Virus record (IMG/VR): IMGVR_UViG_3300025030_000078
Source: an uncultured virus (IMG/VR IMGVR_UViG_3300025030_000078)
Taxonomy: Duplodnaviria; Heunggongvirae; Uroviricota; Caudoviricetes
Length of the DNA stretch: 64,000 bases
Direction: 5' to 3' (one strand)
Shown here piece after piece: positions 1 to 47,852 of this stretch. The position numbers and the translations under genes were made by a program. The first letter of the stretch is position 1. The number at the start of each line of letters is the position of its first letter. The notes beneath the pieces are model-generated. The model did not search any database and had not been told where the DNA came from. It worked only from the letters and a program-made list of their open reading frames with translations.

Positions 1-290
1 ATATGCTAGGTTTTTTACAAGAGTAGAGAGCTCCCTTTCGGCTCTTGCAAAGTTAAATCCGTTGTACTCACTATCAAAACAAGCTCTTAGTATTTCTTCT
101 ATTAAGCCGTCGGGACTGTCGGGTTCGTTAATGGGCTCGGCGGGCTGGTTATGCTTTTTCGTTACCTTATTCGTTACCCCACCAACGCTTTGCACGGGTT
201 TACTGACACCCCTGTTACCGGGAATCGCCCTATTCTTATCCGTTGCCGGGAATCCCGGTGTTTCCTCATATAAAGATACGAGTTCGTTAG
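1..290. repeat. Direct repeat, copy 1 (1-126 exact, diverged to about 290)
   Basis: Base-by-base match to 40143-40268; homology continues with mismatches and an indel to about 40450. Confidence 0.97.
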
Positions 291-381
291 TGCAATCCCT
301 TACATCAGCTTCACTCATTATGCCCTCTCCCCATTTGATAACTATCTCCTCTACTTTCTGTCTATATTCTTGTAGTGTCAT
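1..381 (-). CDS. Hypothetical protein, 5' part; continues in frame at 40142..40011 if the genome is circular
   Basis: GGAGG RBS and ATG at 381; MTLQEYRQK...KNLAY joins LTITRKKK; homologous to 40011..40535. Confidence 0.8.
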   Translation of the reverse strand, partial: MTLQEYRQKVEEIVIKWGEGIMSEADVRDCTNELVSLYEETPGFPATDKNRAIPGNRGVSKPVQSVGGVTNKVTKKHNQPAEPINEPDSPDGLIEEILRACFDSEYNGFNFARAERELSTLVKNLAY

Positions 382-533
382 TTGTTTTCCTCCTTAGTGG
401 GGGAGTCTATGGGTTCCGTTCTACCAATCCCCGCACATTTACAAGCCCAATGACATGTATAAGGATTCTTCCAAAACCTCTCTAAAGCTCTTTCACTTTT
501 TCCATGTGTTGGACAATCGTTATCTATTTTCAT
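378..533 (-). CDS. Small Cys/His-containing hypothetical protein (51 aa)
   Basis: ATGA overlaps with both neighbours; below the track cutoff. Confidence 0.55.
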   Translation of the reverse strand: MKIDNDCPTHGKSERALERFWKNPYTCHWACKCAGIGRTEPIDSPTKEENK

Positions 534-790
534 CTTCCCCTCACTTTCCTTAGTTCGTTCAAACCAAATAACTTACCCTCAAGGCTTGAAGCAGTCCGTA
601 TTATCTCAATACACTCTTCTTCGGTCCGGGGGGCACTATTTTTCTTAAGAACAGCTCTTCCTGCTACCGAGGAACACTTCTTCGGACCTTTTAAAAATGA
701 ATACAACCTACCTACCTTTTTCATAAACACCTTACTGTAGCGCGGATCTAAAACCCTTGGATTATACCCGGTAATTAAAGTTACAGGCAT
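530..790 (-). CDS. Hypothetical protein
   Basis: ORF coupled to the rep gene stop. Confidence 0.6.
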   Translation of the reverse strand: MPVTLITGYNPRVLDPRYSKVFMKKVGRLYSFLKGPKKCSSVAGRAVLKKNSAPRTEEECIEIIRTASSLEGKLFGLNELRKVRGR

Positions 791-791
791 A

Positions 792-1868
792 TTATTTCCC
801 TTCTATACGCTCCTTAAACTTTGTTACAAACTTCTCAGGGGTATGGAGCGGGGGAGCCCAGGACTCCCTATGACCCCCGTACAGACAATATTCTTGTATC
901 CTTCCTTTGTGATAACTGTTGGCTTTAGCATAGTCATCTATCTCATCTATCAACGTATTCTCGTATATGTAACTCATAGTATACGGTGATAACGAACCTA
1001 TAGTAGACATATCCCTAGATTTCTCCTTGCGGTAGGGAGAGGAAAGCCAATTATTAAAGGCGAGTATGGAATTACCACATTTTTTACCCTTACCTTCGTA
1101 CCACGTAGCGAGGTCCCGGACCATGTGTAGGAGTTCGTCCACCGCAGCCTTACTGATCCATTCAGGGTAGTATTTTAAAAAGGTTTTCCTGGTACAAGGT
1201 TTTAAGGAGCAAAGAGCCGTGTAGAGAGGGAGCGAGGGAGCGGGGAGATCTATAAACTCTGTAGAGGGCTCAGACTCGGTTTCAGATTTAGGTTTAAGTT
1301 CCTTCGGAGCGAGGGAGCCCGGTTCGGATTCTAAGGGAGAGATTGTTTCGAAGTCTAGGGGCGGAGAGTTTCGAAGCGAAGGGGCGAGGGGGACAGGTAA
1401 GGAACCAGGATACTCTTTTAAAAAAGATTTTTTTGCCTTCTTACTACTACTACTAATATCCTTATTATCATTATTATCATTATTGAATGTTGTTATTTGT
1501 TTGTTATTTGTTTGTTGATTGTTTGTTATTTGTTTGTTAGGTTGCCTGTTAACGCCTTGATAGTCTTTGTACTTATTTATTGTTATGACAGTGTATCTGT
1601 TGGTAGTTTTGATTGTTATTTCGCCTGTTGATTTTAGCTTATTTAACGCAGTGCGCACTTGTTGCACTGACAAAGCACCAATCTCCGTTGCTATATTTCC
1701 GTAGCTGGTAATTTTTTGACCTTCTTTTATGGCTATGCCGCACCATTCTGTGTCTTTGTGACTTGCTGTAAAAATAAGGTGTGTGAATACGCGGTACACG
1801 TTGGTGTCTGCGTACCATTGCCATTCCACTATTTTTCTGTGTATGGATACCCAACCGCTAATTGACAT
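792..1868 (-). CDS. Phage replication initiator / replisome organizer (lambda O-like)
   Basis: N-terminal GWVSIHRKIVEWQWY helix-turn-helix type; internal iteron-encoded NKQIT repeats; AAAGGAA RBS favours ATG 1868. Confidence 0.8.
   Translation of the reverse strand: MSISGWVSIHRKIVEWQWYADTNVYRVFTHLIFTASHKDTEWCGIAIKEGQKITSYGNIATEIGALSVQQVRTALNKLKSTGEITIKTTNRYTVITINKYKDYQGVNRQPNKQITNNQQTNNKQITTFNNDNNDNKDISSSSKKAKKSFLKEYPGSLPVPLAPSLRNSPPLDFETISPLESEPGSLAPKELKPKSETESEPSTEFIDLPAPSLPLYTALCSLKPCTRKTFLKYYPEWISKAAVDELLHMVRDLATWYEGKGKKCGNSILAFNNWLSSPYRKEKSRDMSTIGSLSPYTMSYIYENTLIDEIDDYAKANSYHKGRIQEYCLYGGHRESWAPPLHTPEKFVTKFKERIEGK
1460..1544. repeat. Iteron array and AT-rich tract, probable origin of phage A
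   Basis: TTGTTATTTGT-type 11-mers in tandem at 1490, 1501, 1512, 1523 and 1534, next to ATTATCATT repeats, inside the initiator gene. Confidence 0.75.
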
Positions 1869-1995
1869 GCATTTCCTTTCTAAAACCAAATATCCCCCCG
1901 CCGGTTGAAAAGAATTTACAGGAGACTTTTCTATCTACAGCGATATAAAACGCGACGGGGGAGTATTTAATTTTAGTTAGTAATTTTTTAAACAT
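1858..1995 (-). CDS. Putative leader peptide (45 aa) overlapping the rep start
   Basis: ATG 1995 to TAG 1858; the stop lies just past rep ATG 1868. Confidence 0.35.
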   Translation of the reverse strand: MFKKLLTKIKYSPVAFYIAVDRKVSCKFFSTGGGIFGFRKEMHVN

Positions 1996-2037
1996 TGCTG
2001 TAGATTCTGACTTCTGGCGTATTTTTTGCCTCCTGTT
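1888..2037 (-). ncRNA. Structured rep leader or antisense RNA candidate
   Basis: Complementary pairs 2028-2036/1918-1926, 1994-2005/1933-1944 and 1953-1968/1888-1903. Confidence 0.55.
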
Positions 2038-2043
2038 TCTAAT

Positions 2044-2071
2044 ATTTTAGGCTTTCCATACTGAAAGTCAA
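2044..2071 (-). promoter_or_regulatory. Sigma70-like promoter for rep
   Basis: TTGACT-16-TAAAAT, with ATACGTATTTGT directly adjacent at 2071-2082. Confidence 0.6.
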
Positions 2072-2129
2072 TACGTATTTGTTGTTTAGGGCGGAAGTTA
2101 CCTGACGGCTTCCCCCGCCCCGTTTGTGC

Positions 2130-2699
2130 TTATAGCGCGTGATAGTCCTGTGAATATTTACAGGTGTCCATCAGTTTGCCTTGGTTGTAAAAGCAAAGCA
2201 TCACATCCAACGGCATTTCGACCAGCTGTGATCTGAGCCAGTCAGTTACCTCTTTCACGCTCTCCTCGAAAGTATCAAAGCAGAATTTACGGTTACCCCT
2301 AGCGAAGAATCCAAACTCGTTGGTCTTACCAATCGATTCACAAAACTTATGGTGTCCCTCCGAGTTTTCACCTCTCCCGGATTCTAGTGTACGGATTTTT
2401 TCAACCAGCTCCCCCAGCCCCTCTTCATAAACGATTTTAGTCTTATCGGTTTGAGTGAGTGTTTTTTTCTCTGCAGCTAACACAGTGAAAGGTTCTGTTG
2501 ATTCTACCTCTAGCAGGGTAATTACTATAGGTTTCTGGGTTACTAACGGAGATCTAATCTCTACGTTGTGCCACTTGCTCCACAAAACTATTCCCCGGAA
2601 GTCCGCAAGGATTAACCCCAAATCTACCAAGGTAAGCACCAAGCACACGCCCAGCAGTATTTTTTGCCTTTTAGTTAAGGCAATATTCAGTTTTTGCAT
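2130..2699 (-). CDS. Membrane-anchored lysozyme-like (glucosaminidase/transglycosylase-like) protein
   Basis: N-terminal TM helix; LESG catalytic-Glu-like motif, NEFG, FDTFEESV and YN motifs. Confidence 0.45.
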   Translation of the reverse strand: MQKLNIALTKRQKILLGVCLVLTLVDLGLILADFRGIVLWSKWHNVEIRSPLVTQKPIVITLLEVESTEPFTVLAAEKKTLTQTDKTKIVYEEGLGELVEKIRTLESGRGENSEGHHKFCESIGKTNEFGFFARGNRKFCFDTFEESVKEVTDWLRSQLVEMPLDVMLCFYNQGKLMDTCKYSQDYHAL

Positions 2700-2729
2700 T
2701 TTCTATCACCTCCTTAAAAATCGAAAAAT

Positions 2730-2942
2730 TTATAATATAATCCAATTACGGTCGAATGTTTCCCAGCTTCTATAGGGGCATTGAAACGGTTTTATAATTA
2801 CCGGGTAGAAATTACCTATCACCCAGCCCAGCGGTCCTCTTGAATACTCTGCGATGGTCAACTTGTATATTTTTCCCGTCTCTAACATCGGGAAAGTCTC
2901 GTCTGGTTTTCCTATAAACCTGCAACGTCTAATCATTTGCAA
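2730..2942 (-). CDS. Hypothetical protein
   Basis: AGGAGG RBS upstream. Confidence 0.6.
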   Translation of the reverse strand: MQMIRRCRFIGKPDETFPMLETGKIYKLTIAEYSRGPLGWVIGNFYPVIIKPFQCPYRSWETFDRNWIIL

Positions 2943-3046
2943 TCCTCCTAAAAAAATGTTATATACATAATGCCCGTTGAGCCTATGTGCAACCGCCCTG
3001 TGTTTACACGGTGCGCTTTGTTCCTCTAAGCGAGACGGGCAACTTT

Positions 3047-3238
3047 TTATATTTTATGGTAGTACGCCACGGCTAACTTCTCAGCTCTCTTAACGAAAGC
3101 TCTGCTCTCACACGTCAGGGCAAGTCCCGCGTGAGTATTTAACAGTTTTGCTGTTAGTTTGTGTCCGTCCCGGTGAAACTCTACGCGGTCAAGTCGGTAG
3201 TGTTTAGCGTTCGGGGCTTTATATGTTGCTATTAGCAT
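3047..3238 (-). CDS. Hypothetical protein
   Basis: ACAGGAGAC RBS upstream. Confidence 0.7.
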   Translation of the reverse strand: MLIATYKAPNAKHYRLDRVEFHRDGHKLTAKLLNTHAGLALTCESRAFVKRAEKLAVAYYHKI

Positions 3239-3264
3239 TTTTAGTCTCCTGTAATTAAATACAA

Positions 3265-3450
3265 TTAAAATACTTCAGCTCCGCCGTCTAGCCTTATTAT
3301 TGTGTGTTTTACATCTCCCACGTTCGTGCCTTCTATTGCTCTGGTGCATAAATACTCAGCTCCGCCGTCGGTTCGTTTAAAGAATAGCGTGTATTTACTC
3401 GCTACCGCTATTGTGTCGTAGATATTTAGTTTTTTAGTTGTTGTGACCAT
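3265..3450 (-). CDS. Hypothetical protein with duplicated DGGAE motif
   Basis: ORF overlaps the upstream gene's stop. Confidence 0.6.
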   Translation of the reverse strand: MVTTTKKLNIYDTIAVASKYTLFFKRTDGGAEYLCTRAIEGTNVGDVKHTIIRLDGGAEVF

Positions 3451-3865
3451 TGGTTTCTTCCTCTTCCCATGAAATTAAGTAACTGTTTTCGCTTTTCCCT
3501 CCGCCTAAGTTTGAAACTCTAACTTCTAAGGCTTCGGCTAGTCTGATAATTGACTCCTTGCCACAACCGCCGTCGATGTAGACTTTGTCTCCGTCTTCGT
3601 AAAGTATATGTTGTTTGTTTGTTTTCTTGTTGTAGAAGTGCAACCCGTAAAATGTATCCGTTCCGACATTCTTTGCCCGTTCAATAATCGGCGTGTATTT
3701 TGTCAGCACGTACGCAAGGGAAGTTCCCCCCATATCGTAGCCCCCACCACTACAGCCACACGAACGGTCTGTAAAGGTGTTGAAATTTTTAGTTATGTGC
3801 GCGGTACAACGTAGCCCTCGGCTGCTGTCTTTCCACGTTTGTCTGAGTATAATTTGCTCGGTCAT
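3434..3865 (-). CDS. Hypothetical protein (GCSGGGYDMGGT motif)
   Basis: ACAGGAGAC RBS supports ATG 3865 rather than 3958. Confidence 0.7.
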   Translation of the reverse strand: MTEQIILRQTWKDSSRGLRCTAHITKNFNTFTDRSCGCSGGGYDMGGTSLAYVLTKYTPIIERAKNVGTDTFYGLHFYNKKTNKQHILYEDGDKVYIDGGCGKESIIRLAEALEVRVSNLGGGKSENSYLISWEEEETNGHNN

Positions 3866-3899
3866 TTTTTTAGTCTCCTGTAAAAACCAATTAAATAAG

Positions 3900-4001
3900 T
3901 TATCTGAACAGTCTGCGAATACGTGCGAGATAGAACATTTTTCTATGTTCTCTTTCAAGCTTTTTGATAAAGCTTTTTGTGGCTGGGTAATGTATTGCCA
4001 T
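3900..4001 (-). CDS. Small basic protein (33 aa), first gene after the leftward promoter
   Basis: ACAGGAGAC RBS; MAIHYPATKSF...RRLFR. Confidence 0.55.
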   Translation of the reverse strand: MAIHYPATKSFIKKLEREHRKMFYLARIRRLFR

Positions 4002-4066
4002 CTTTTTGTCTCCTGTAATAAATAAGTACGTTGTGCCTTTAGTGGTTTTGTTTTTCCACTATCAGA

Positions 4067-4095
4067 ATTCTAGCATTAAAATACGTATCTGTCAA
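4067..4095 (-). promoter_or_regulatory. Early leftward promoter
   Basis: TTGACA-17-TAGAAT, near consensus. Confidence 0.8.
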
Positions 4096-4501
4096 GTATA
4101 TTCTATCCGGGAAGTTTTAGAAAAATACTCTAATCTGTATTGTAGTATGTCGCCTCTTTATAGTTTGCGGGAAATATGCGGGAATTATAAAAAACTAGTA
4201 ATGCAACACCTCGATTATGGCGTGGTTACAGCCTATAGTCGTACACGTCGTTATATATACATTATACGACGTGGTTTTGAAATAAAAAAACTGGTACTAT
4301 TGCTTGTAACTACAGCCAAAGCAACCGAATGTGGCAACCCGTTGGGCAGGGGCAGAAGAGGGTGAAGTATCCTATAGTAAACGAAACAAGGAGTTTATCC
4401 CGCCATTAAAAGATTTCCGTCAGGGGGTGGGGGATAACTCCTAGCGGGGTCGCAACACAGTAGTGATATCCCTCGCTACATTTGACCAAATTCCCCGCTA
4501 C

Positions 4502-4530
4502 TTTACAAATTCGTATCTGTACTATAAGAT
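4502..4530 (+). promoter_or_regulatory. Late promoter, leaderless start at 4537
   Basis: TTTACA-17-TAAGAT, 6 nt before the ATG. Confidence 0.6.
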
Positions 4531-4536
4531 AACTTT

Positions 4537-5367
4537 ATGTCACGAACAAAGGATGTTTCCCCTGTCGCATCAACAACAAGCATTAAATTCTTACAGGAAT
4601 CCGGCTACATCGATTCCCCTAACTGTGCTATATGCAGCGCCACTCACCCAGTCTCCCACATCCCTGTGCGCCCCGATCTCGAAGAAATATGGGTCCGTGC
4701 CGGTTCGCATAAAGCTCTCTCGTTCCTTCGCGGCTGTGGCATTAACGTAACTATCCGCTCCCTGCAACGTCACATCCAGAACCACGCTCCCTACCTTCGT
4801 GCAGGAATATGGCTAAAGCGCTCCCAAGATCTCATCAAAGCTGCCGTAGAAGAACACGCTGAAGCTGAGGTTGCAGTTCAAAACATCATAAACATCGGTA
4901 ACAAAATGGTTCTTGAAGGTGCGCTCCCCGTTACCGAGCGACTTTTTGTCGAATCTCTAAAACTCCAAAGCAAAAACAAACAAGTCTCCTCGCTCCGAGG
5001 TTTCCTTGACGAAATAGAATCGGGCGCTTTTTCCAATGCAGAGCTTGTTGATGATAATAAAAAACAACTTGCATCCCCGGTCATTGAAGGCGAAACTGTA
5101 GAAGACGATATTTACACCACCCAACCCACCCCAAATGACCCCCCTCTTTCCTCTGAAACACCTCCTTCTTTAAATCCTAATACCGAAGATGGTACTTCTA
5201 TCGTTTCAGCTCCTGAAACTTCACCAGAACCAATCCTAGAGCCTCCGATAAAAAAGAAAATAATTACTAAACCTCCATTAAAGAAGATACCTAAAGCCAA
5301 AATGCTTGAAACATTTGATGATTTTAAACCATTTTTCCCCGAAGCGGAGGGACCTGATGTCGATTGA
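4537..5367 (+). CDS. Putative terminase small subunit
   Basis: Immediately upstream of TerL; N-terminal CxxC...RH..NH motif; low-complexity tail. Confidence 0.55.
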   Translation: MSRTKDVSPVASTTSIKFLQESGYIDSPNCAICSATHPVSHIPVRPDLEEIWVRAGSHKALSFLRGCGINVTIRSLQRHIQNHAPYLRAGIWLKRSQDLIKAAVEEHAEAEVAVQNIINIGNKMVLEGALPVTERLFVESLKLQSKNKQVSSLRGFLDEIESGAFSNAELVDDNKKQLASPVIEGETVEDDIYTTQPTPNDPPLSSETPPSLNPNTEDGTSIVSAPETSPEPILEPPIKKKIITKPPLKKIPKAKMLETFDDFKPFFPEAEGPDVD

Positions 5368-6793
5368 AGCCGCTAAAGAATACTACGCAAAATATTTTAA
5401 ACTCGGTAAGGACGACCCCGAAATATTTATTTCTAAAATTGTGTCTCCCGCGCATTGGCGTAACCCCATAACCGGACAAGAAGAAGAAATGCGACCTAAT
5501 GGTCCACAGCTTAAATGGCTTAAAAACTCAATAATGCCCTATAACGTGTTTGCAGCGGGTAACTCTTCCGGTAAATCTTTTGGTTCTGCCTTTAAAGCAG
5601 TTTGGTTTGCGAATTATAAAAAAAAGCCGGGAAAAAACTATGGGAGCTATGCAGAATTCATTTCACAACCCTATAAAGTTTTACTATCGGGTCCCGAATC
5701 CAAGCAGGCAATGTCTCTTTTTGAACAGGTTGAATTCTTACTTAAAAATTCCCCTTATTTGTCTCAGAAGATTGTCAGTATAACTACCGGAACTAAAAGA
5801 GATCCCCACGCCTGTATTGACCTGGATAACGGGGCTTCTATTCACGCCATATCAACCAAAAACAAAGGTAAGCACATTGAGTCCGGGGACTTTGATTTGA
5901 TTATTTTTGATGAGCCTGCAGACGAACCCCACTTAAGTTATGTTATCGATAAAGTATTGGTTCCCCGTATGTTTAGACGTGGCGGTGTTTTAGACCTTGT
6001 CGGTACTCCTAAAGATAGCCCGGAGTTTTTAGACTGGTATCGTAAAGGTTGCTCCTCTGAGGATGAGTTTTATGACCCTCGCTACGTCGAACCTGAGTCC
6101 TACTACTCCCAAAACGCGTCCTCCTTTGAAAATCCGTTTGCAGACCAGGAGAAGATTCAGCAGTATGCATCCACTAAAAACGAGGATATTATTCAGGAAA
6201 GACTTTACGGTAAATTTGTCAATTTCTCTGATTCTGCCTTCCCGGAGACTGTTATCCATGCGTGTCTTAACCCCGAACTTCCTGTGCATATTGAACCGTC
6301 TGACGGAAGGATTTATGTCACGGGAGTTGATTTTGGTAGGAAAAACGACTTTACCGTGGCAGTTACTTTAGACGTGACGGAGTTCCCTTTTACCGTCGTC
6401 GACTTCGGTCGTTGGGGAGGGGGTAATGTATCTTGGGAGTTTATTTTTAACCAGCTTTATAGTATATTTGAGAAATATAGGTCAGAATTTTTTGTCGATG
6501 CGACATCTTCTGGCGGTGACATGCAAGTAGAGTGGCTGAACGGTATGGGCGTGTTTTATAAGCAATTTATTTACACTCCCGCCAAAAAGGTTATACTGAT
6601 AAATAACCTACAGGATATGATGGCAAGGAGTAGAGTTAGGTTCGGGCTAATACCGGAGCTTAAAGATGAGCTTAGGTTTTACCCGCGAAGTCTCGAAGAT
6701 AAACACTTCGACACGGACTGTGTTATGGGTCTTGCGCTCGCCTGCCTGCGTGCCAAAGATTTTGGTAATGTAAGCGAGCCGTACGAATATTAA
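5357..6793 (+). CDS. terL: Terminase large subunit
   Basis: Walker A AGNSSGKS, Walker B IIFDE, GTP coupling motif, nuclease GVDFGRKNDFT and DTDCVMGLALA. Confidence 0.93.
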   Translation: MSIEAAKEYYAKYFKLGKDDPEIFISKIVSPAHWRNPITGQEEEMRPNGPQLKWLKNSIMPYNVFAAGNSSGKSFGSAFKAVWFANYKKKPGKNYGSYAEFISQPYKVLLSGPESKQAMSLFEQVEFLLKNSPYLSQKIVSITTGTKRDPHACIDLDNGASIHAISTKNKGKHIESGDFDLIIFDEPADEPHLSYVIDKVLVPRMFRRGGVLDLVGTPKDSPEFLDWYRKGCSSEDEFYDPRYVEPESYYSQNASSFENPFADQEKIQQYASTKNEDIIQERLYGKFVNFSDSAFPETVIHACLNPELPVHIEPSDGRIYVTGVDFGRKNDFTVAVTLDVTEFPFTVVDFGRWGGGNVSWEFIFNQLYSIFEKYRSEFFVDATSSGGDMQVEWLNGMGVFYKQFIYTPAKKVILINNLQDMMARSRVRFGLIPELKDELRFYPRSLEDKHFDTDCVMGLALACLRAKDFGNVSEPYEY

Positions 6794-20203: not shown

Positions 20204-20869
20204 ATGCCTTACGGCTCATCATCATACGGTTCTTCAACATACGGCGGAGGTGGGGGTAGAAGCTTTATTAGTAAGGTTTTAACCCTAATCTATAATATTT
20301 TCAGTAACGTCAGCATCACTCTTACAGTCATATACATCATCAGAAATCTTGTAAATAATACACTTTCCTTTATCTATATTATTTTAAATAATGTAAGTAA
20401 CACTTTGTCTGTTATATGGAATATAATGGCTACGGTTGCCGCTAGAATCTTTACGTTTATCTATAACATACGAAATAATGTAAGTAACAGCCTGACTATC
20501 GTATGGATCCTTCGCTACTTCGTTAATAAATCTTTACATCTTATTTACAACATCTACGCGTTTCTTTCCAACCAGCTTTTCATCCTTTGGAACCTCCTAA
20601 ACCACGCATCAAACCAGCTTTCCCTCCTCTGGAACCTTCGCTCCTTCGTGAGTAATACACTATCGGTCATATGGATAATTACCGGGGTTATTTCAAAAGC
20701 TCTAATATTAGTCTATAATATAATTAAGTTTGAAATAGGTTACCGTAGGAAACCTGTTATTATAGGGTCTTCTCTCGAAAACCCGGTAATTATAGGCGCT
20801 ACTAAAGACTCTCCTACGATGTTAGAAACAGCGGGTGACTCTCCACAGGTGTTGTCCGCAGGAGAATAA
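20204..20869 (+). CDS. Virion protein with about 11 tandem 14-aa repeats
   Basis: Repeats of the S(N/K)xLxx(I/L)(Y/W)N(I/L)xxxV type. Confidence 0.75.
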   Translation: MPYGSSSYGSSTYGGGGGRSFISKVLTLIYNIFSNVSITLTVIYIIRNLVNNTLSFIYIILNNVSNTLSVIWNIMATVAARIFTFIYNIRNNVSNSLTIVWILRYFVNKSLHLIYNIYAFLSNQLFILWNLLNHASNQLSLLWNLRSFVSNTLSVIWIITGVISKALILVYNIIKFEIGYRRKPVIIGSSLENPVIIGATKDSPTMLETAGDSPQVLSAGE

Positions 20870-29035: not shown

Positions 29036-30254
29036 ATTCTTTCATCCTTCCCGTCTTGAAGTCTGCATCAAGCTCCAGTTCAAAGGTAAAACCGTTTCTG
29101 TTCTTCTTAACATCCACCACAAGTTCGTTTTTAGAGTCTTCTTTCCTTTTAAGGACAATGCCAAGATCTGCACAGGCTTCAATCGTTCCCGAACCTTTAT
29201 ACCCAAACGCCCCGGAAGTCCCTGTTTTTTGGGATTCTCTACTTACCTGAGAGGCTACTATGACACAAATCTTTTCAGATAAAGCAAGATTTTGGAGTTT
29301 TCTTATGGCGTTGGAAAGCTCCTCGTACTCATCTTTTCCTCCGGCAAGGTTTTGCAGGAAGTCAACAACAACAACATCTAAACCCTTATCTGCAAGCTCT
29401 CTTTTAACGTAAAAAATAACTTCGTCTATGCGGGTTATTCCACTAATTATGCGGATTGGTGAGGTTAAGATACCTTGTAGCGCGGAATCCCTCTTATCCT
29501 TGCTTTCAGGTGTCAGGCGGTCTTGTATCATATCGAACTCAGGAATGCCTGTATTTATAGCTGTAAGTCTCCAAGCAAGCCTAGTTTCTACCATTTCTGT
29601 AGACAGGTATAAAACCTTAGCCCCGTCTTTTAAAGCATTGTTAGCAAGATTCAAACAAAACCAAGACTTACCTATAGAAGTGTAGGCTCCGACTACCCAC
29701 AGTTGTCCCTTCTGAAGTCCGCGGGTAGCGGAGTCTATTCTCCTATATCCTGTAGAAAATCCCCATAAATCCTTTCCTTTATAGAGTTCTATTTCCTTTT
29801 TCATCTCCTCAACCAAAGTCTCTGACGTGATATCGGTTTCTAAGCGGGATTCTGTAAGGTTAAAAAGCTTGTGAGCTACGTCCGTTATCAGCTTATCTAT
29901 AGTGTTATTGGCGTAGTTTTTGCTATCTACAAGAAAACCACCTATGTTTTTTAAAGCCCAGGTACGCTTGGCTTCCTTGATATGCTTTAGATATTGATTT
30001 AATTCCTCTTTATCAAACTCGTGTGAGGATCTACCAAGTTCCCTAACAAGCTTAATAGAATTTTCATCACTAAAGCTTTCTTCTAAGGTGAAGTAGTCTA
30101 AAAATTCCTTTTTACTATAAAGGTCTACTATTTTGGCAAAAATTTCTTTATATCCCGGAGTTATAAAATCTTCTGGCGACAGTTTAGCAAGAACTTGATC
30201 TATAAGATAAGGTGTTTTTATTATTCCACCGAGCAGAGTTTTCTCGTAGTTCAT
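29028..30254 (-). CDS. dnaB: Replicative DNA helicase, DnaB-like
   Basis: EKTLLG..LSPEDF N-domain, GAYTSIGKS, STEM, VVDFLQ, ASQVSR, SGTIEACAD and KNRNG motifs. Confidence 0.93.
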   Translation of the reverse strand: MNYEKTLLGGIIKTPYLIDQVLAKLSPEDFITPGYKEIFAKIVDLYSKKEFLDYFTLEESFSDENSIKLVRELGRSSHEFDKEELNQYLKHIKEAKRTWALKNIGGFLVDSKNYANNTIDKLITDVAHKLFNLTESRLETDITSETLVEEMKKEIELYKGKDLWGFSTGYRRIDSATRGLQKGQLWVVGAYTSIGKSWFCLNLANNALKDGAKVLYLSTEMVETRLAWRLTAINTGIPEFDMIQDRLTPESKDKRDSALQGILTSPIRIISGITRIDEVIFYVKRELADKGLDVVVVDFLQNLAGGKDEYEELSNAIRKLQNLALSEKICVIVASQVSRESQKTGTSGAFGYKGSGTIEACADLGIVLKRKEDSKNELVVDVKKNRNGFTFELELDADFKTGRMKEYA

Positions 30255-32969: not shown

Positions 32970-33753
32970 TCTCCTTATATAAATCAGTAATCCCTTTACA
33001 AAACCCTTCCCACGTAAAATGAGCTACTTGGGGGGCGGTGTAAAATCTCTTTATTTCTGTTGTGATGCTTTCCACATTCCGTTCACATGTATGCAATGTT
33101 AAATATTTTGCTACCCCCACACCTGTGGTAAGAAGCGGTTTATTTATTGCGGCACATTCCATAGCTATGGTATTAGCCCCCTCATCTTGTGAGGCAACTA
33201 CCATAAGATCTACAGAATCATAGAACTTTTGCATATCCGTAACTCCCAGCTCTCCCCCGGCTACCTCAAGCTTTATCCCTAATTTATCACAGGCTTCTTT
33301 AACTAGGTAGTATCCTTTATAGATTCTGCTTTCTTCTGAGTTATTCTGAAACGCCATACCTACCGTGAATCCTTCTTTTACTTTAAGGTTTTCAAAGAAC
33401 AACCCGTCCGAAATGCAAGTAGCATCGGTAAATATTGACAACTGCTTGGGATTTATAACATGGGTATTTATACCGTTGTCTCTAAGGAACGGGGGGATCC
33501 AGTCAGGAAACCTAAAACTTCTTATAGACACTAAAACAGGCACTTTACTCCCTGTAATAAGTCTCTGATAGGGATAAATGTCCCAGTTATTGAAATGAAT
33601 CAGGTCGTAACCTTGCGGGAATTGTGCGGGAATTGGGTCCTTATAACTTGCTATATCAATATCTACTCCATATTTCCCGCATATTTCCCGCATCTTTTTG
33701 GAAATACGATCCACTATCCAACCTTGCCCGTCTGAGTATAATAGTACTTTCAT
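32950..33753 (-). CDS. Glycosyltransferase, GT4
   Basis: KGY and DLMVVASQDEG...ECAA..KPLLTT.VG motifs. Confidence 0.85.
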   Translation of the reverse strand: MKVLLYSDGQGWIVDRISKKMREICGKYGVDIDIASYKDPIPAQFPQGYDLIHFNNWDIYPYQRLITGSKVPVLVSIRSFRFPDWIPPFLRDNGINTHVINPKQLSIFTDATCISDGLFFENLKVKEGFTVGMAFQNNSEESRIYKGYYLVKEACDKLGIKLEVAGGELGVTDMQKFYDSVDLMVVASQDEGANTIAMECAAINKPLLTTGVGVAKYLTLHTCERNVESITTEIKRFYTAPQVAHFTWEGFCKGITDLYKEIVYAKS

Positions 33754-40075: not shown

Positions 40076-40535
40076 ATACCTTGAAACTGCCTTCCTCTGC
40101 GAATCGTTCCATAAAAGCCTTCTTCTTTCTCGTAATTGTCAGATATGCTAGGTTTTTTACAAGAGTAGAGAGCTCCCTTTCGGCTCTTGCAAAGTTAAAT
40201 CCGTTGTACTCACTATCAAAACAAGCTCTTAGTATTTCTTCTATTAAGCCGTCGGGACTGTCGGGTTCACTAATGGGTTCAACAGGTTGGTTATGTTTTT
40301 TCGTTACCTTATTCGTTACCCCACCAACACTTTGCATAGATTTAGGCTTTTCTTGCGTAGGTTTACTAACACCCCCATTGCCGGGAATCCCCTTATTTTT
40401 ACCCGTTGCCGGGAATCCCGGTGTTTCCTCATATAAAGATACGAGTTCGTCACGATATCTTTTTACTATATTCTTTTGTCCTAAACCCCTTAAATATCCC
40501 CAAAATATAATTTGTCTTTTCATAATTTCCTCCAC
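40011..40535 (-). CDS. Hypothetical protein spanning the junction (possibly an A/B chimera)
   Basis: Homologous to the ORF at 1..381 but with a different N-terminus. Confidence 0.65.
   Translation of the reverse strand: MEEIMKRQIIFWGYLRGLGQKNIVKRYRDELVSLYEETPGFPATGKNKGIPGNGGVSKPTQEKPKSMQSVGGVTNKVTKKHNQPVEPISEPDSPDGLIEEILRACFDSEYNGFNFARAERELSTLVKNLAYLTITRKKKAFMERFAEEGSFKVYGTPAEVFDFFLEDYDEKVQQ
40143..40450. repeat. Direct repeat, copy 2 (A/B junction)
   Basis: Same comparison as copy 1. Confidence 0.97.
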
Positions 40536-44193: not shown

Positions 44194-44413
44194 ACTACGA
44201 AAACCAATAAAAGTACATGATATTAGCGTTAAAAAAAGACTGAACAGTATGGAAGTGGCGCTAGCCGTTTTATATCAAACTGAAGAAAACAGCGAGTTTA
44301 AAACCATTTTTATACCGCTTCCAATTCCTGAACCGTGGATTAAAAACGAGGAATTTTACTACGCTGTCGAGTCTGTATTAAATAAAGTTATAAAGGAAAT
44401 AAACAAAAAATGA
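44186..44413 (+). CDS. Hypothetical protein
   Basis: Coupled ORF. Confidence 0.55.
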   Translation: MIELRKPIKVHDISVKKRLNSMEVALAVLYQTEENSEFKTIFIPLPIPEPWIKNEEFYYAVESVLNKVIKEINKK

Positions 44414-46038
44414 CTGCCCAAGAATACTTAAAGGAACACGGAATATCAGAAACTACAGCTAAGAAATTCAATTTATCCTCGGACGATAATTTTTTACACA
44501 TCCCGGTAAAAGATGAAGATGGAAATCTTCTTTTTACCAAGTCCCGAAATCTTAACTATACAAAAGAAGGCACGGAACCCAAATATAAAAATCCTGCCGG
44601 ATCACACGCCGCCCTTTTTAACCTTAACGCGGTCAAGGACGAACCCAACATCGTTCTTTGCGAAGGTGAAATAGACTGCATGAGGTTAATTCAGGGGGGG
44701 ATACCTTCGGTCTCCTCCACAGGCGGAGCAGGCGGTTTTAATAAGGATTGGGCATCTCTTTTTACCGGAAAAAATGTCTGGATCTGTTTAGATAACGATG
44801 ACGCCGGTAAAGCCGGAACCCGCAAAGTTTTAGAATCAATTCCCCATGCCCGTGTAATATCCTTGCCGGAAGGCGTTAAAGATATTTGTGACTTCTTCCT
44901 AACACACACCAAAAAAGAATTCGTTCAACTTATGCGTCTTGCCCAAACTAAATCGGAATGGGAAACCTCAAACCTTCCGGAGGACTACAACCTTATTCCT
45001 ATTTCCGAACTTATAAACATGGAATTCGAAGTACATCCGTGGCTTATAGACAACATTCTTTACAATGAAGGTTTTTGTTTTATCTACGGAGCTGAAGGAA
45101 CCGGAAAGTCTTTTATAGCCCTCTCTATCGCGCAAGCGGTAGCCTCCGGCAAAGACTGGCTTAATCATTTTCATGTTTCTTCTCCTGTTAACGTCCTTAT
45201 TCTTGATAAAGAAAATCCTCTCTCAATGGTCGCTAAACGCGCAAAAGGTCTTGGTTTTAATTCTACTAACAGTAATGTTCACTATCTACAGTATCCGGAA
45301 AAGTTCCAGTTGGTTGACTCAAAAGGAGAATACTCCGCTTTCGCGCAAGCACTTTCCGCTATCGCAACTTCCAAAAACATCGGTCTTATTGTTATAGACT
45401 CCTTTGTTGACTTCATGCTAGGATCCGAATCCTCCGCCGAAGATACACAACTGTTTTTTAACGCCCTTCGAGAACTATTCCCTCATAAGGCTTTTGTAGC
45501 CCTACATCACGAAAACAAACCTTCACAAGGAGTTTTTAGGAATGACTCACAGCGCCTTCGCGGATCCTCAAACATAAACGCGCAGACCTTCACATCCTTT
45601 AGGTTAGAACCCGTCGCTAAAAGTAAAACAGAAATGACACTAAAACAAACAAAGGCAAGGGACGCACTCAAATTGGATAAGTTCATGATTAGGATGCAAG
45701 TAGGCGCGCAAGCGGATGGCTCTACAGTCGTTACGGGTTTTGAGTACGTTGGGGAAGTTGAAGAGTCGGTAGACGAAGGTAAATCCAACGAAGCAAAAGA
45801 ACTGATAAAAGAGATGATTATTGGGAAGAATTTCATCAGCCAAAAAGAGGTTATAGAAATGGGAACCGGAAGAGGAATTTCGGATTCAACCCTAAGAAGA
45901 GCTATCCGGGAAATGGTCGAGGAGGGAGAAATTAACAAAACTCGAAAGGGGAAAGAAGTGTGGTATTCAATGAGCCTTTTTACCAGTAATGACGCGGAAA
46001 ATGACCCGTCAGAAATCTTCAATGGAGAGATTTTGTAA
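44410..46038 (+). CDS. TOPRIM primase / AAA_25 (RepA-like) helicase with C-terminal winged HTH
   Basis: CEGEID, CLDNDDAG, KDICD; YGAEGTGKS, VIDS, LHH, RGSS; ISDSTLRRAI. Confidence 0.9.
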   Translation: MTAQEYLKEHGISETTAKKFNLSSDDNFLHIPVKDEDGNLLFTKSRNLNYTKEGTEPKYKNPAGSHAALFNLNAVKDEPNIVLCEGEIDCMRLIQGGIPSVSSTGGAGGFNKDWASLFTGKNVWICLDNDDAGKAGTRKVLESIPHARVISLPEGVKDICDFFLTHTKKEFVQLMRLAQTKSEWETSNLPEDYNLIPISELINMEFEVHPWLIDNILYNEGFCFIYGAEGTGKSFIALSIAQAVASGKDWLNHFHVSSPVNVLILDKENPLSMVAKRAKGLGFNSTNSNVHYLQYPEKFQLVDSKGEYSAFAQALSAIATSKNIGLIVIDSFVDFMLGSESSAEDTQLFFNALRELFPHKAFVALHHENKPSQGVFRNDSQRLRGSSNINAQTFTSFRLEPVAKSKTEMTLKQTKARDALKLDKFMIRMQVGAQADGSTVVTGFEYVGEVEESVDEGKSNEAKELIKEMIIGKNFISQKEVIEMGTGRGISDSTLRRAIREMVEEGEINKTRKGKEVWYSMSLFTSNDAENDPSEIFNGEIL

Positions 46039-47276: not shown

Positions 47277-47852
47277 ATGGCAAAGGAAAAGAAATTAGAT
47301 CTTTCTAAATATCCTAAGAAAAACAATTTACCAAAAGAACCGCAGGAACACAAAAGAGTAGGTAGACCGACAAAGTACAAACCGGAGTTTGCACAGATGT
47401 TGATAGATTTTTTTAGTATTGACCCAACTTATGAAGAAGAGGTCACTTATACGAACAAAAAAGGGGAAACTTGGTCTAAAACAGAGAAGAAACCCAACTT
47501 TTTACCCACGTTCGAACGTTTTGCACACTCTATTGGAGTAAATGACGATACGGTAGTTACTTGGGCGAAGGCTAAAAGGTCTAAAGGAAGCGCTAAATAT
47601 CCAGAGTTTTCCGCCGCATATACGCGTGCGAAGCAGTTACAAAAGGATATTCTCGTACAAAATGCCCTTGCGGGAAGATACAATCCGGCTTACGCCATAT
47701 TTTTATCTAAGAACATTACCGACATGAGGGATAAAGTAGAAGTGCCGGTTGATGACAAAGGTAATCCAGTCCCATTCGTCTCCGGATTTAATTTTGTAAG
47801 ACCTACAGATAATAAAGACGATGGAAAGACCGACAATAACTCCGACAATTAA
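47277..47852 (+). CDS. terS: Terminase small subunit
   Basis: GRPTKYKPE, PTFERFA..IGV, YPEFSAAY and AIFLSKN motifs; precedes TerL. Confidence 0.88.
   Translation: MAKEKKLDLSKYPKKNNLPKEPQEHKRVGRPTKYKPEFAQMLIDFFSIDPTYEEEVTYTNKKGETWSKTEKKPNFLPTFERFAHSIGVNDDTVVTWAKAKRSKGSAKYPEFSAAYTRAKQLQKDILVQNALAGRYNPAYAIFLSKNITDMRDKVEVPVDDKGNPVPFVSGFNFVRPTDNKDDGKTDNNSDN

What the first reader, a model, noticed from the sequence alone, without database searches (positions are those of the whole stretch)
1914..4018. Rep leader is antisense to the identical RBS of three early genes
Seen: three - strand genes share the RBS TTACAGGAGAC(T) (plus-strand 3243-3254, 3872-3884, 4008-4018). The same word lies in the opposite orientation at about 1915-1927, so the leader RNA contains AGUCUCCUGUAAA, complementary over 11-13 nt to all three and also to its own 5' end. 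Known: P1 C4 and P4 CI RNAs are same-strand phage RNAs that silence targets through short complementarity. Inference: a multi-target anti-Shine-Dalgarno RNA links early gene shut-off to replication.
Basis: partly seen in the sequence, partly recalled or inferred. Interest (0 to 1): 0.72.

Follow-up and report, generated by a model that had tools for sequence, protein, structure and literature searches.

The report
Anti-RBS loop in phage Rep leader
In the untranslated leader of a phage replication gene, a predicted exposed hairpin loop carries the exact complement of a ribosome-binding word shared by three early genes, so one RNA could switch those genes off together, but this has not been tested.

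Summary
The 11-mer TTACAGGAGAC occurs exactly four times in 64 kb, all within 2.1 kb. Three copies are the ribosome-binding sites of the 1st, 2nd and 4th genes of the leftward early operon. The fourth is inverted, in the 260-nt gap upstream of a DnaD-like replisome-organizer gene.

The inverted copy is unlikely to be chance: 0.06-0.9% of shuffled leaders reach it. It lies downstream of a promoter-like site that shares an operator-like palindrome with the main early promoter. In the predicted fold, 11 of its 13 bases form an apical loop, in the top 2.2% for accessibility. Duplex energies are -19 to -22 kcal/mol for the three targets and -7 to -11 for other sites of the operon.

Nothing shows expression or co-evolution. 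No RNA run holds the phage, every relative found is near-identical, and 70 distant Rep modules show nothing comparable.

The closest known case is the start-associated sequences of Cluster K mycobacteriophages, whose function is unknown. I found that their single inverted copy also sits in a hairpin loop, in the gap where late transcription starts. That loop did not co-vary in subcluster K6.

Verdict: a plausible anti-Shine-Dalgarno RNA (about 0.4). A DNA-binding site or chance remain open.

The parts
1915..1927 (-). Anti-RBS word: the - strand RNA reads AGUCUCCUGUAAA (+ strand TTTACAGGAGACT). This is the single inverted copy of the shared RBS word.
   Evidence: I11, I15, I25. Chance estimate 0.0006-0.0093.
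1907..1931 (-). Predicted apical hairpin GAAAAG-[UCUCCUGUAAAUU]-CUUUUC. 11 of the 13 complementary bases (1925-1915) lie in the loop.
   Evidence: On its own it is weak (-3.5 kcal/mol, z -0.67). Loop accessibility 0.63, 97.8th percentile. Opening cost 0.08 kcal/mol.
1894..1962 (-). Long branched hairpin closed by CCCCCGUCG/CGGCGGGGG. It carries the apical hairpin. A-rich (1976-1964) and U-rich (1893-1880) flanks extend it, which looks like a terminator or attenuator, and it ends 12 nt before the rep Shine-Dalgarno.
   Evidence: -41.9 kcal/mol for 181 nt, z -2.33, 6 of 200 shuffles as good; -25.6 kcal/mol, z -2.38, 5 of 200. The terminator scan did not flag it, because its loop exceeds 8 nt.
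2027..2035 (-). SD-like ACAGGAGGC followed by CAAAAA, a degenerate same-sense copy of the RBS word. No AUG follows. AUA at 2022-2020 is in frame with the 45-aa ORF.
   Evidence: Duplex with the loop region -16.4 kcal/mol.
2044..2071 (-). Promoter-like site 'P_rep': TTGACT-16-TAAAAT, 10 of 12. Predicted start near 2037.
   Evidence: Promoter-like sites as a class are not enriched in the region (8 found against 9.0 +/- 3.1). Support comes from its intergenic place and the adjoining palindrome.
2069..2082 (.). Operator-like imperfect palindrome around ATACGTAT, abutting the -35 of P_rep. Sister copies lie at 4079-4092 (in the spacer of the early promoter) and 4507-4520 (in the spacer of the rightward promoter).
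   Evidence: family D10; exact ATACGTAT only at 2071-2078 and 4081-4088 in 64 kb.
2088..2121 (-). Strong GC hairpin just after the stop of ORF 2130-2699, with no U tract. It may mark the end of the six-gene early unit.
   Evidence: -22.8 kcal/mol, z -4.55, 0 of 200 shuffles as good.
4067..4095 (-). Early leftward promoter-like site: TTGACA-17-TAGAAT with TG, 11 of 12.
4008..4018 (-). RBS word copy A (UUACAGGAGAC), 6 nt before the AUG of ORF 3900-4001 (33 aa), the first gene of the early unit.
   Evidence: Duplex with the loop -18.7 kcal/mol; opening cost 1.35.
3872..3884 (-). RBS word copy B (UUUACAGGAGACU), 6 nt before the AUG (3865) of ORF 3434-3865 (143 aa), the second gene.
   Evidence: Duplex -22.5 kcal/mol; opening cost 4.84.
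3243..3254 (-). RBS word copy D (UUACAGGAGACU), 4 nt before the AUG of ORF 3047-3238 (63 aa), the fourth gene.
   Evidence: Duplex -19.8 kcal/mol; opening cost 3.51.
792..1868 (-). rep: a DnaD-like replisome organizer or helicase loader, with 11-bp iteron-like repeats at 1478-1548 in its linker.
   Evidence: phrog_2514, 3.3e-32. (850 homologues of the N-domain). (D1).
1858..1995 (-). 45-aa ORF through the leader hairpin, with no SD before its AUG. Its stop (1860-1858) lies 5 nt after the rep AUG (1868-1866). It is either a chance frame or a coupling leader peptide.
   Evidence: Not tested further.

Best explanation
The three immediate-early genes carry a private, SAS-like start word (UUACAGGAGAC) that extends the Shine-Dalgarno core GGAG on both sides. 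The transcript of the replication unit displays the perfect complement of that word on the apical loop of a long leader hairpin.

Proposed mechanism: loop-to-RBS pairing covers the SD of the three early mRNAs and lowers their translation together. The 11-13 bp duplexes have a net energy of roughly -13 to -17 kcal/mol after opening costs. Pairing could occur in trans, from transcripts started at the promoter-like site at 2071-2044, or in cis, on read-through early mRNA. The degenerate same-sense copy at the leader's predicted 5' end may compete for the same loop.

Shown: the sequences, their positions relative to start codons, and their statistics.
Predicted: the promoter, the fold, the accessibility and the energies.
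Inferred: that the RNAs meet, that translation falls, and any link to replication timing.
For: (1) There are four exact copies in 64 kb, all within 2.1 kb: three at RBS positions and one inverted on the same transcribed strand.

(2) Only 0.06% (13-mer) to 0.93% (11-mer) of 20,000 shuffled leaders contain a complement of any of the 10 operon RBS windows.

(3) The complement is in a predicted 13-nt apical loop. Its unpaired probability is 0.63, the 97.8th percentile of 11-nt windows over 3.4 kb of - strand RNA, and its opening cost is 0.08 kcal/mol.

(4) Duplex energies are -18.7, -22.5 and -19.8 kcal/mol for the three targets, against -7.1 to -11.2 for the other four RBSs tested.

(5) The word lies downstream of an intergenic promoter-like site. 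The only two exact ATACGTAT palindromes in the window touch this site and the main early promoter.

(6) No + strand ORF or start codon follows the + strand copy, and no + strand promoter-like site lies between 1800 and 2130.

(7) There is an independent parallel in Cluster K1 mycobacteriophages. [quoted passage not shown] In both it sits in a predicted 10-nt apical loop CCUCCUAUCC of a long GC stem. The stem is kept in 10 aligned phages, with 4 of 18 pairs showing compensatory changes. In Adephagia, late transcription is reported to start in this same gap (PMC11373665, passages).
Against: There is no evidence of transcription: 0 of the 17 sequencing runs that hold the stretch are RNA. This is a blank, not a negative.

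There is no evolutionary test. All other copies of this phage are identical at the four sites, and the 79%-TerL relative lacks the early region.

The folds are only modestly better than shuffles (z about -2.3; 5-6 of 200 shuffles as good). The small presenting hairpin alone is not better than chance (z -0.67, 46 of 200).

Two of the 70 other Rep-type loci also have a 13-nt reverse-complement word between leader and upstream DNA, neither beside a start codon. So single 13-mers do arise by chance in AT-rich phage DNA. Those loci show no excess of such words (145 against 160 in the reversed control).

A 45-aa ORF runs through the hairpin.

If the shared palindrome is one repressor's operator, the rep promoter would fire together with the early promoter, which fits a temporal shut-off poorly.

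In the Cluster K parallel, the loop did not co-vary with the start word. Unicorn (K6) keeps 12 exact SAS copies, but its homologous loop reads GUUCUCCCUUCCC. Of the 13 phages aligned, 2 lack the loop. TM4 and Pixie are reported to have SAS without an inverted copy.
Confidence: 0.4

Rival explanations
1. DNA-level site. TTACAGGAGAC is an asymmetric binding site for a phage DNA-binding protein that works in either orientation, as a roadblock or operator in the manner of L5 stoperators. It would shut down the early unit at three points and the rep unit at one. The sites overlap RBSs only because the intergenic gaps are tiny.
For: Four exact copies are confined to the early region and occur in both orientations. 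The gaps between the early genes are only about 25-35 nt, so any non-coding site must overlap an RBS. The region has other dispersed exact words that look like protein sites: ATACGTAT at promoters, and TGCGGGAAATATGCGGGAA at 4166-4184 and 33674-33692. The authors of the Cluster K paper favoured DNA-binding proteins for the extended SAS repeats.
Against: All three same-sense copies keep the same register to the start codon and contain the SD core, which a DNA site does not need. A DNA site does not predict that the inverted copy falls in an accessible RNA loop. There are no further degenerate copies beyond what SD-like sequences explain: 29 against 16.8 +/- 4.0 at two mismatches or fewer. No DNA-binding domain was detected in any of the 11 neighbouring ORFs by Pfam, or in 10 of them by PHROGs; small proteins are often missed.
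Confidence: 0.18
2. The three identical RBSs are functional (a tuned or copied translation-initiation cassette), but the inverted copy is a coincidence or a relic and does nothing.
For: It is a single 13-mer. Two of 70 unrelated Rep loci have a chance 13-mer of the same kind. About six other chance 11-mer complements to the ten RBS windows occur on the - strand of the 64-kb window. Fold z-scores are modest. There is no conservation evidence. The finding was picked after reading the whole window, so multiple testing applies.
Against: Shuffle probability is 0.0006-0.0093 for this leader. Unlike the AT-rich chance hits, the match covers the SD core. It falls in the most accessible 2.2% of the RNA and in a leader next to a promoter-like site. 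The early region holds three perfect 13-nt long-range inverted repeats, against 0.16 expected; 0 of 300 block shuffles reached 3.
Confidence: 0.3
3. The pairing is real but controls Rep rather than the early genes. The loop normally sequesters the SD-like word at the leader's 5' end, which could be a stabiliser or the RBS of a coupling leader peptide that ends at the rep start. Abundant early mRNAs would then titrate the loop and switch Rep translation or leader stability.
For: The SD-like ACAGGAGGC lies at the predicted 5' end with a 6-nt spacer to AUA. This is in frame with a 45-aa ORF whose stop lies 5 nt after the rep AUG. The loop-to-5'-end duplex is -16.4 kcal/mol, weaker than the duplexes with the early RBSs, so competition would favour the early mRNAs.
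Against: There is no canonical start codon behind the SD-like word. The transcription start is only predicted. No + strand antisense promoter of the kind used in plasmid rep leaders was found. The rep SD itself is predicted to be unpaired in the centroid fold. This reading overlaps with the best explanation and cannot be separated from it by computation.
Confidence: 0.08
4. The inverted word and the RBS words are crossover sites of a DNA inversion system (invertible segment or shufflon type).
For: Inverted exact repeats 1.3-2.1 kb apart, with several partners.
Against: The repeats are only 11-13 bp. No recombinase or invertase family was found among the 90 ORFs of the window scanned. No inversion joint at these positions appeared in the contigs of 4 runs; contigs hide rare forms. 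Inversion would cut rep off from its promoter-like site.
Confidence: 0.02

Closest known systems
Start-associated sequences (SAS) of Cluster K mycobacteriophages (Pope et al. 2011, PMC3203893; passages read)
   Same: Both are an exact asymmetric word that contains the SD core AGGAG and is conserved beyond it. Both lie a few bases before ATG starts, occur only on non-structural genes, and run in one orientation plus a single opposite-orientation copy that is not at a gene start. In both systems I find that the inverted copy lies in a long gap of the same transcription direction and in a predicted apical hairpin loop.
   Different: The word differs (GGGATAGGAGCCC against TTACAGGAGAC) and so does the phage lineage, so this is an analogue, not a homologue. 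Cluster K has 11-19 copies; here there are 3. In Cluster K the gap is where late transcription starts (PMC11373665); here it is the rep leader. SAS function is still called unknown in the 2024 and 2025 papers. In K6 the loop did not co-vary with the start word.
P1/P7 c4 antisense RNA and P4 CI RNA (recalled; only a search listing seen)
   Same: These are phage RNAs encoded on the same strand and in the same transcription unit as their targets. They act through short complementary stretches, one of which covers a target RBS.
   Different: No Rfam family, including the C4 model, matched the window. In P1 the RNA lies upstream of its target and is cut out by RNase P. Here the element lies downstream of its targets, in an mRNA leader, and would address three separate RBSs.
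C/U-rich apical-loop regulatory RNAs of Gram-positive bacteria that pair with the SD of several mRNAs, such as S. aureus RNAIII hairpins, RsaE/RoxS and actinobacterial 6C (recalled)
   Same: A pyrimidine-rich CUCC-containing hairpin loop pairs with the SD regions of multiple mRNAs.
   Different: Those use generic 4-7-nt C-rich seeds on diverse SDs. Here an 11-13-nt perfect match relies on a private word shared by the targets. This RNA is phage-encoded and part of an mRNA leader.
L5 / Cluster A stoperators (recalled; mentioned)
   Same: Short asymmetric exact words repeated in tiny intergenic gaps of early regions.
   Different: Stoperators are numerous, genome-wide, oriented with transcription and bound by the repressor. 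Here there are four copies in 2.1 kb, three of them in fixed register with start codons.
Rep leaders of IncB/IncI-alpha/R1 plasmids: leader peptide coupled to rep, with hairpin-loop pseudoknot and antisense RNA (recalled)
   Same: A structured leader lies before a replication initiator. An ORF ends at the rep start. A hairpin loop has long-range complementarity.
   Different: No opposite-strand promoter-like site was found. The loop's best partners are RBSs of other genes up to 2 kb away, not the rep RBS (-11.2 kcal/mol).

Membership tests
Cluster K start-associated sequences (SAS) | An exact asymmetric word containing AGGAG, lying 3-9 bp before start codons, with conservation beyond the SD | tested here: met
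   The word ends 4-7 nt before ATG at three genes. Its flanks TTACA and AC are identical.
Cluster K start-associated sequences (SAS) | The sequence GGGATAGGAGCCC, in 11-19 copies per genome | tested here: not met
   The word is different, with only 3 same-sense copies. This is an analogue, not a member.
Cluster K start-associated sequences (SAS) | Restricted to non-structural genes; one orientation plus (in K1) a single inverted copy not at a gene start | tested here: met
   All copies lie in the early leftward unit. The one inverted copy at 1915-1927 has no start codon after it.
C4 antisense RNA family (P1/P7 c4, P4 CI-like) | Match to the curated covariance model (sequence plus structure) | tested here: not met
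   No Rfam match at E <= 1 in 1-5000, and none at gathering score in the whole window.
C4 antisense RNA family (P1/P7 c4, P4 CI-like) | Same-strand short complementarity that covers a target RBS | tested here: met
   11-13 nt perfect complement over the SD of three genes. This is a functional resemblance only.
C4 antisense RNA family (P1/P7 c4, P4 CI-like) | Excision of a discrete small RNA from the transcript | not testable with these tools
   No RNA data.
Stoperator-type repressor sites | Many copies spread over the genome, oriented with transcription | tested here: not met
   Four exact copies within 2.1 kb and none elsewhere in 64 kb. The one-mismatch copy lies inside a late gene.
Stoperator-type repressor sites | Bound by a phage repressor | not testable with these tools
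   No DNA-binding family was detected in neighbouring ORFs. Binding needs an experiment.
Invertible-segment or shufflon crossover sites | An adjacent site-specific recombinase, and both orientations present in sequence data | tested here: not met
   No recombinase family among the 90 ORFs scanned. No strand-change joint at the sites in the contigs of 4 runs (weak, since contigs hide rare forms).
Plasmid-type rep leader control (leader peptide, pseudoknot, antisense RNA) | A leader ORF that ends at the rep start | tested here: met
   The 45-aa ORF stops at 1860-1858; the rep AUG is at 1868-1866. Whether it is translated is unknown.
Plasmid-type rep leader control (leader peptide, pseudoknot, antisense RNA) | An opposite-strand antisense RNA gene, and a loop that pairs next to the rep RBS | tested here: not met
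   No + strand promoter-like site in 1800-2130. The loop-to-rep start region duplex is only -11.2 kcal/mol.

The most novel reading that the evidence does not exclude
Some phages 'address-tag' a chosen set of early genes with a private extension of the Shine-Dalgarno sequence. They also carry one 'anti-tag' displayed on a hairpin loop in the leader of a later transcription unit: rep here, the late operon in Cluster K1 mycobacteriophages. A single mRNA leader would then switch off translation of the whole tagged set. The tagged mRNAs may in turn titrate the loop and release the leader's own SD-like word, giving a reciprocal mRNA-mRNA switch. If so, this would give the unexplained start-associated sequences of Cluster K their first mechanism.
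Probability: 0.15. Interest if true: 0.8.

Novelty: new variant of a known kind. Interest (0 to 1): 0.55.

Why it matters
If the pairing is real, one leader RNA would coordinate the shut-off of several early genes through a shared, private RBS word. That is a compact way for a phage to time gene expression at the level of translation, and it is not among the described phage antisense systems that I know of or found.

It also makes an old puzzle testable. The start-associated sequences of Cluster K mycobacteriophages have had no known function since 2011. Their single inverted copy turns out to sit in a hairpin loop in the gap where late transcription begins. Those phages grow on a laboratory strain and already have RNA-seq data and recombineering tools.

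If the pairing is not real, the finding reduces to three identical ribosome-binding sites and a coincidence.

Tried and rejected
RNA evidence. No RNA holder was listed among 18 runs (17 hold the stretch, from 8 studies), so expression could not be examined.

Micro-diversity. The contigs of 4 DNA runs laid on 1-6000 show no difference at any of the four word copies. The phage's own contigs are identical over 258-6000. The differences listed at 82-241, 567-596, 1502-1509 and 3945-3948 come from other contigs that match only short parts. L009 is identical over 1-4700, and G001 differs at 2 positions (567, 578) in 14 kb. No covariation test was therefore possible.

Search for divergent relatives:
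- Rep, TerL, the 189-aa protein and the 143-aa protein in IMG/VR returned only the same phage, plus a 79%-TerL fragment that starts 1,036 nt before TerL and has no Rep.
- TerL in metagenome contigs returned the phage itself plus a 1,510-nt fragment.
- Rep in species-representative genomes returned nothing.
- blastn against GenBank phages returned nothing.
- TerL by tblastn gave only hits below 33% identity.
- The RBS word plus spacer plus ATG, used as a pattern, gave 16 IMG/VR loci. 15 have one copy of the 11-mer; only this phage has several. In genome contigs it gave 63 loci with one pattern match each. I did not count the bare 11-mer in those.

Distant Rep modules. 80 loci were fetched with an alignment of N-domain homologues. 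DNA similarity to the window stops inside rep (1420-1863) and does not reach the leader. A rep start was assigned in 78 of 81 sequences. In the 71 with at least 800 nt upstream (70 besides the window), reverse-complement words of 10 nt or more between leader and upstream DNA were no more frequent than in the reversed control (145 against 160). None resembled a multi-RBS match.

A + strand gene behind the inverted copy. No ATG, GTG or TTG lies at RBS distance, and the + strand frames are closed.

Also negative: Rfam and tRNA/tmRNA scans found nothing. The earlier-findings index returned nothing in three look-ups.

Function of the target genes. There are no Pfam or PHROG hits. The Atlas model of the 143-aa protein is poor (pLDDT 0.40) and its structural neighbours score below the threshold for naming a family.

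Counting the anti-SAS loop across all Cluster K phages. Megablast with a 47-nt query was too insensitive (13 records) and I dropped it.

The ZoeJ paper (PMC6452893) is not held, and I did not look at the supplements of the Cluster K papers. They may map the late start site and list the inverted SAS sites.


Full report
WHAT IS THERE. The window holds most of a roughly 43-kb tailed phage and, from about 43.4 kb on, a second phage with its own primase-helicase, terminase and head genes. In the first phage a 516-nt gap (4020-4536) separates two units. The rightward late genes begin with TerS-like 4537, TerL 5357, portal 6794 and major head 15467. The leftward early unit is the subject here.

The best sigma-70-like site of the region (TTGACA-17-TAGAAT with TG, 4095-4067, - strand) faces six small ORFs of unknown function:
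- 3900-4001 (33 aa)
- 3434-3865 (143 aa)
- 3265-3450 (61 aa)
- 3047-3238 (63 aa)
- 2730-2936 (68 aa)
- 2130-2699 (189 aa)

None has a Pfam or PHROG match. A strong GC hairpin without a U tract follows (2121-2088; -22.8 kcal/mol, z -4.55). Then comes a 260-nt gap, and then rep (792-1868). The N-domain of rep is a DnaD-like replisome organizer (phrog_2514, E = 3.3e-32; 850 homologues).

TTACAGGAGAC occurs exactly four times in 64 kb: three times on the - strand, 4-7 nt before the ATGs of the 1st, 2nd and 4th early genes, and once on the + strand at 1916-1926 in the rep leader. Extended identity is 13, 12 and 11 nt. Of 62 predicted genes, no other set of three shares even a 9-mer in its 22-nt upstream window. 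The other RBSs of the operon are ordinary AGGAGG or GAGG types. A nearly identical copy of the phage in IMG/VR has the same four copies.

IS THE INVERTED COPY CHANCE? Shuffling the 261-nt leader 20,000 times gave a complement to any of the 10 RBS windows of the operon in 0.93% (11-mer), 0.23% (12-mer) and 0.06% (13-mer) of trials. Against that, about six other chance 11-mers of this kind lie on the - strand of the whole window. In 70 unrelated Rep-type loci, 2 have a 13-nt reverse-complement word between leader and upstream DNA, both AT-rich and neither beside a start codon. The finding was also selected after reading the whole window. I take the copy as probably not chance, but on one word only.

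The early region as a whole has three perfect 13-nt long-range inverted repeats where block shuffles give 0.16; 0 of 300 shuffles reached 3. One of the other two (4017-4029 against 1569-1581) abuts the RBS word of the first early gene and pairs with the inside of rep.

CONTEXT OF THE INVERTED COPY. A promoter-like site (TTGACT-16-TAAAAT, 2071-2044, - strand) lies in the gap. Such sites are not enriched overall (8 against 9.0 +/- 3.1). However, the palindrome ATACGTAT occurs exactly only twice in the window, once touching the -35 of this site and once in the spacer of the early promoter. A one-mismatch copy sits in the same spacer position of the rightward promoter-like site at 4502-4530. These three copies look like the operators of one regulator and support the reality of the rep promoter.

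A transcript starting near 2037 would begin with ACAGGAGGCAAAAAA, a degenerate same-sense copy of the RBS word with no AUG behind it. About 110 nt in, it would carry AGUCUCCUGUAAA. RNAfold puts that word in the 13-nt apical loop of GAAAAG/CUUUUC, on top of a long hairpin closed by CCCCCGUCG/CGGCGGGGG with A-rich and U-rich flanks. That hairpin ends 12 nt before the rep SD.

The folds are only moderately better than shuffles (z -2.3 and -2.4), and the small hairpin alone is not better (z -0.67). In a local-folding scan of 3.4 kb of - strand RNA, the 11 loop bases have unpaired probability 0.63, the 97.8th percentile. Duplex energies with the three targets are -18.7, -22.5 and -19.8 kcal/mol. 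The other four RBSs tested give -7.1 to -11.2, and the leader's own 5' word gives -16.4. Opening costs are 0.08 kcal/mol for the loop and 1.4-4.8 for the targets.

A 45-aa ORF without an SD runs through the hairpin and stops 5 nt after the rep AUG. I could not decide whether it is translated.

WHAT COULD NOT BE TESTED. No RNA run holds the phage. Four DNA runs from four studies, the metagenome contig and the IMG/VR contig are identical at all four copies. All searches for diverged relatives failed: by four proteins, by DNA and by the word itself, in IMG/VR, metagenomes, species genomes and GenBank phages. The Rep N-domain and the iteron-coding linker are widespread. In those relatives, DNA similarity stops at the rep start, and they show no comparable leader-to-RBS complementarity (145 reverse-complement words against 160 in the reversed control).

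CLOSEST KNOWN CASE, AND A NEW PARALLEL. Cluster K mycobacteriophages carry 11-19 copies of GGGATAGGAGCCC 3-7 bp before the starts of non-structural genes. [quoted passage not shown] The authors left open whether an RNA or a protein binds these words (PMC3203893, passages). Papers of 2024 and 2025 still call the role unknown.

I located the inverted copy:
- In Anaya, 15 same-sense copies and 1 inverted copy lie in the right 30.8 kb. The inverted one is in the 385-nt gp96-gp97 gap.
- In Adephagia it lies in the gp92-gp93 gap. That is the gap where 'late transcription appears to initiate' (PMC11373665, passages).
- In both, the predicted fold puts CCUCCUAUCC in the 10-nt apical loop of a long GC stem, inside a highly structured region (z -7.3 and -6.75).

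The region is conserved in 178 phage records. In 10 aligned phages the stem is kept, with compensatory changes in 4 of 18 pairs. This is the same architecture as in the window, in an unrelated phage.

The parallel has limits. Of the 13 phages I aligned, 5 have the exact loop, 5 have other C/U-rich loops, 1 has a different sequence and 2 lack it. Unicorn (K6) keeps 12 exact same-sense words while its loop reads GUUCUCCCUUCCC. TM4 and Pixie are reported to have the words without an inverted copy. The start words therefore do not depend on the anti-word. At most, the anti-word is an added regulator.

A library search for 'start-associated' with 'antisense' and 'phage' found only the Adephagia paper, where 'antisense' refers to other transcripts. 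Within that library, I found no statement of an anti-SAS RNA.

MECHANISM AND ODDS.
- Best reading (0.4): the rep-unit leader displays an anti-Shine-Dalgarno loop that pairs with the private RBS word of three immediate-early genes and lowers their translation, in trans or on read-through RNA.
- A variant that computation cannot separate (0.08): control runs the other way. The early mRNAs free the leader's own SD-like word and so affect Rep.
- Rival (0.18): the word is an orientation-independent DNA site of an unknown protein.
- Rival (0.3): the inverted copy is chance.
- Rival (0.02): DNA inversion.

The shared operator-like word suggests that the rep promoter may be controlled together with the early promoter.

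COMPARISON WITH KNOWN KINDS. The proposed action resembles P1 c4 and P4 CI in that the RNA is same-strand, the complementarity is short and an RBS is covered. It also resembles the C-rich-loop RNAs of Gram-positive bacteria. Both comparisons rest on recall, and no Rfam model matched. The arrangement resembles the Cluster K start-associated sequences, but it is not a member of that family: the word and the lineage differ and there are only three copies. I rate it a new variant of a known kind, of moderate interest. The interest rises if the Cluster K parallel proves functional.

Noticed in passing
window 1478-1548 (inside rep): Four 11-bp tandem repeats (TTGTTATTTGT type), next to an AT-rich stretch at 1440-1490, encode the linker NKQITNNQQTNNKQITT. 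Both the repeat DNA and this peptide are conserved in dozens of otherwise distant Rep modules (consensus of 32 proteins; blastn hits over 1451-1677). This is probably an origin with iterons inside the initiator gene, as in lambda O.
   Followed up: partly
window 4502-4537: The rightward promoter-like site TTTACA-17-TAAGAT ends 6 nt before the ATG of the first late gene (4537). That gene has no Shine-Dalgarno sequence, so its mRNA may be leaderless. The spacer holds a one-mismatch copy of the ATACGTAT palindrome.
   Followed up: partly
window 2071-2078, 4081-4088, 4509-4516: An operator-like imperfect 16-bp palindrome (ACAnATACGTATnTGT type) lies at all three promoter-like sites of the early/late switch region. 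No repressor gene was identified.
   Followed up: partly
window 4017-4029 / 1569-1581 and 765-777 / 2795-2807: There are two further perfect 13-nt long-range inverted repeats between the early unit and the rep unit. The first abuts the RBS word of the first early gene. Together with the RBS word they make 3 in 4.7 kb, against 0.16 expected. The second word (TACCCGGTAATTA) also recurs near 20,675-20,794.
   Followed up: partly
window 4166-4184 and 33674-33692 (also 34105): A 19-nt perfect inverted repeat, TGCGGGAAATATGCGGGAA (itself a tandem of TGCGGGAA), links the switch region with the distal early genes. It may be the site of another regulator.
   Followed up: no
window about 43,400-64,000: A second, unrelated phage genome begins here, with its own primase/helicase (44410-46038), TerS, TerL (47821-49344) and head protein. 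The near-identical public contigs of the first phage stop near window 40.6-41.3 kb. The window therefore spans two viral genomes or a joined assembly.
   Followed up: partly
window 243-258, 40378-40421, 51098-51110: The palindromic word CCGGGAATCCCGG (with TTGCCGGGAATCCC flanks) recurs 3-4 times, including once in the second phage.
   Followed up: no
L093 (Anaya) 29,760-30,020; L106 (Adephagia) 2050-2330; alignment A2: A conserved, highly structured non-coding region lies near the right end of 178 Cluster K phage records. It has an invariant CTTTTAGACT (a -10-like TAGACT) about 100 nt upstream of the anti-SAS hairpin and an invariant TGGCTGGTCACC further on. It is a candidate late-operon leader or small RNA. 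In some records short ORFs are annotated over it.
   Followed up: partly
window 2130-2699: The language-model neighbours of the 189-aa early protein (N-terminal hydrophobic stretch) are mostly from Candidatus Moraniibacteriota. Together with the groundwater and sediment runs that hold the phage, this hints at a candidate-phyla-radiation host. This is a lead only.
   Followed up: no
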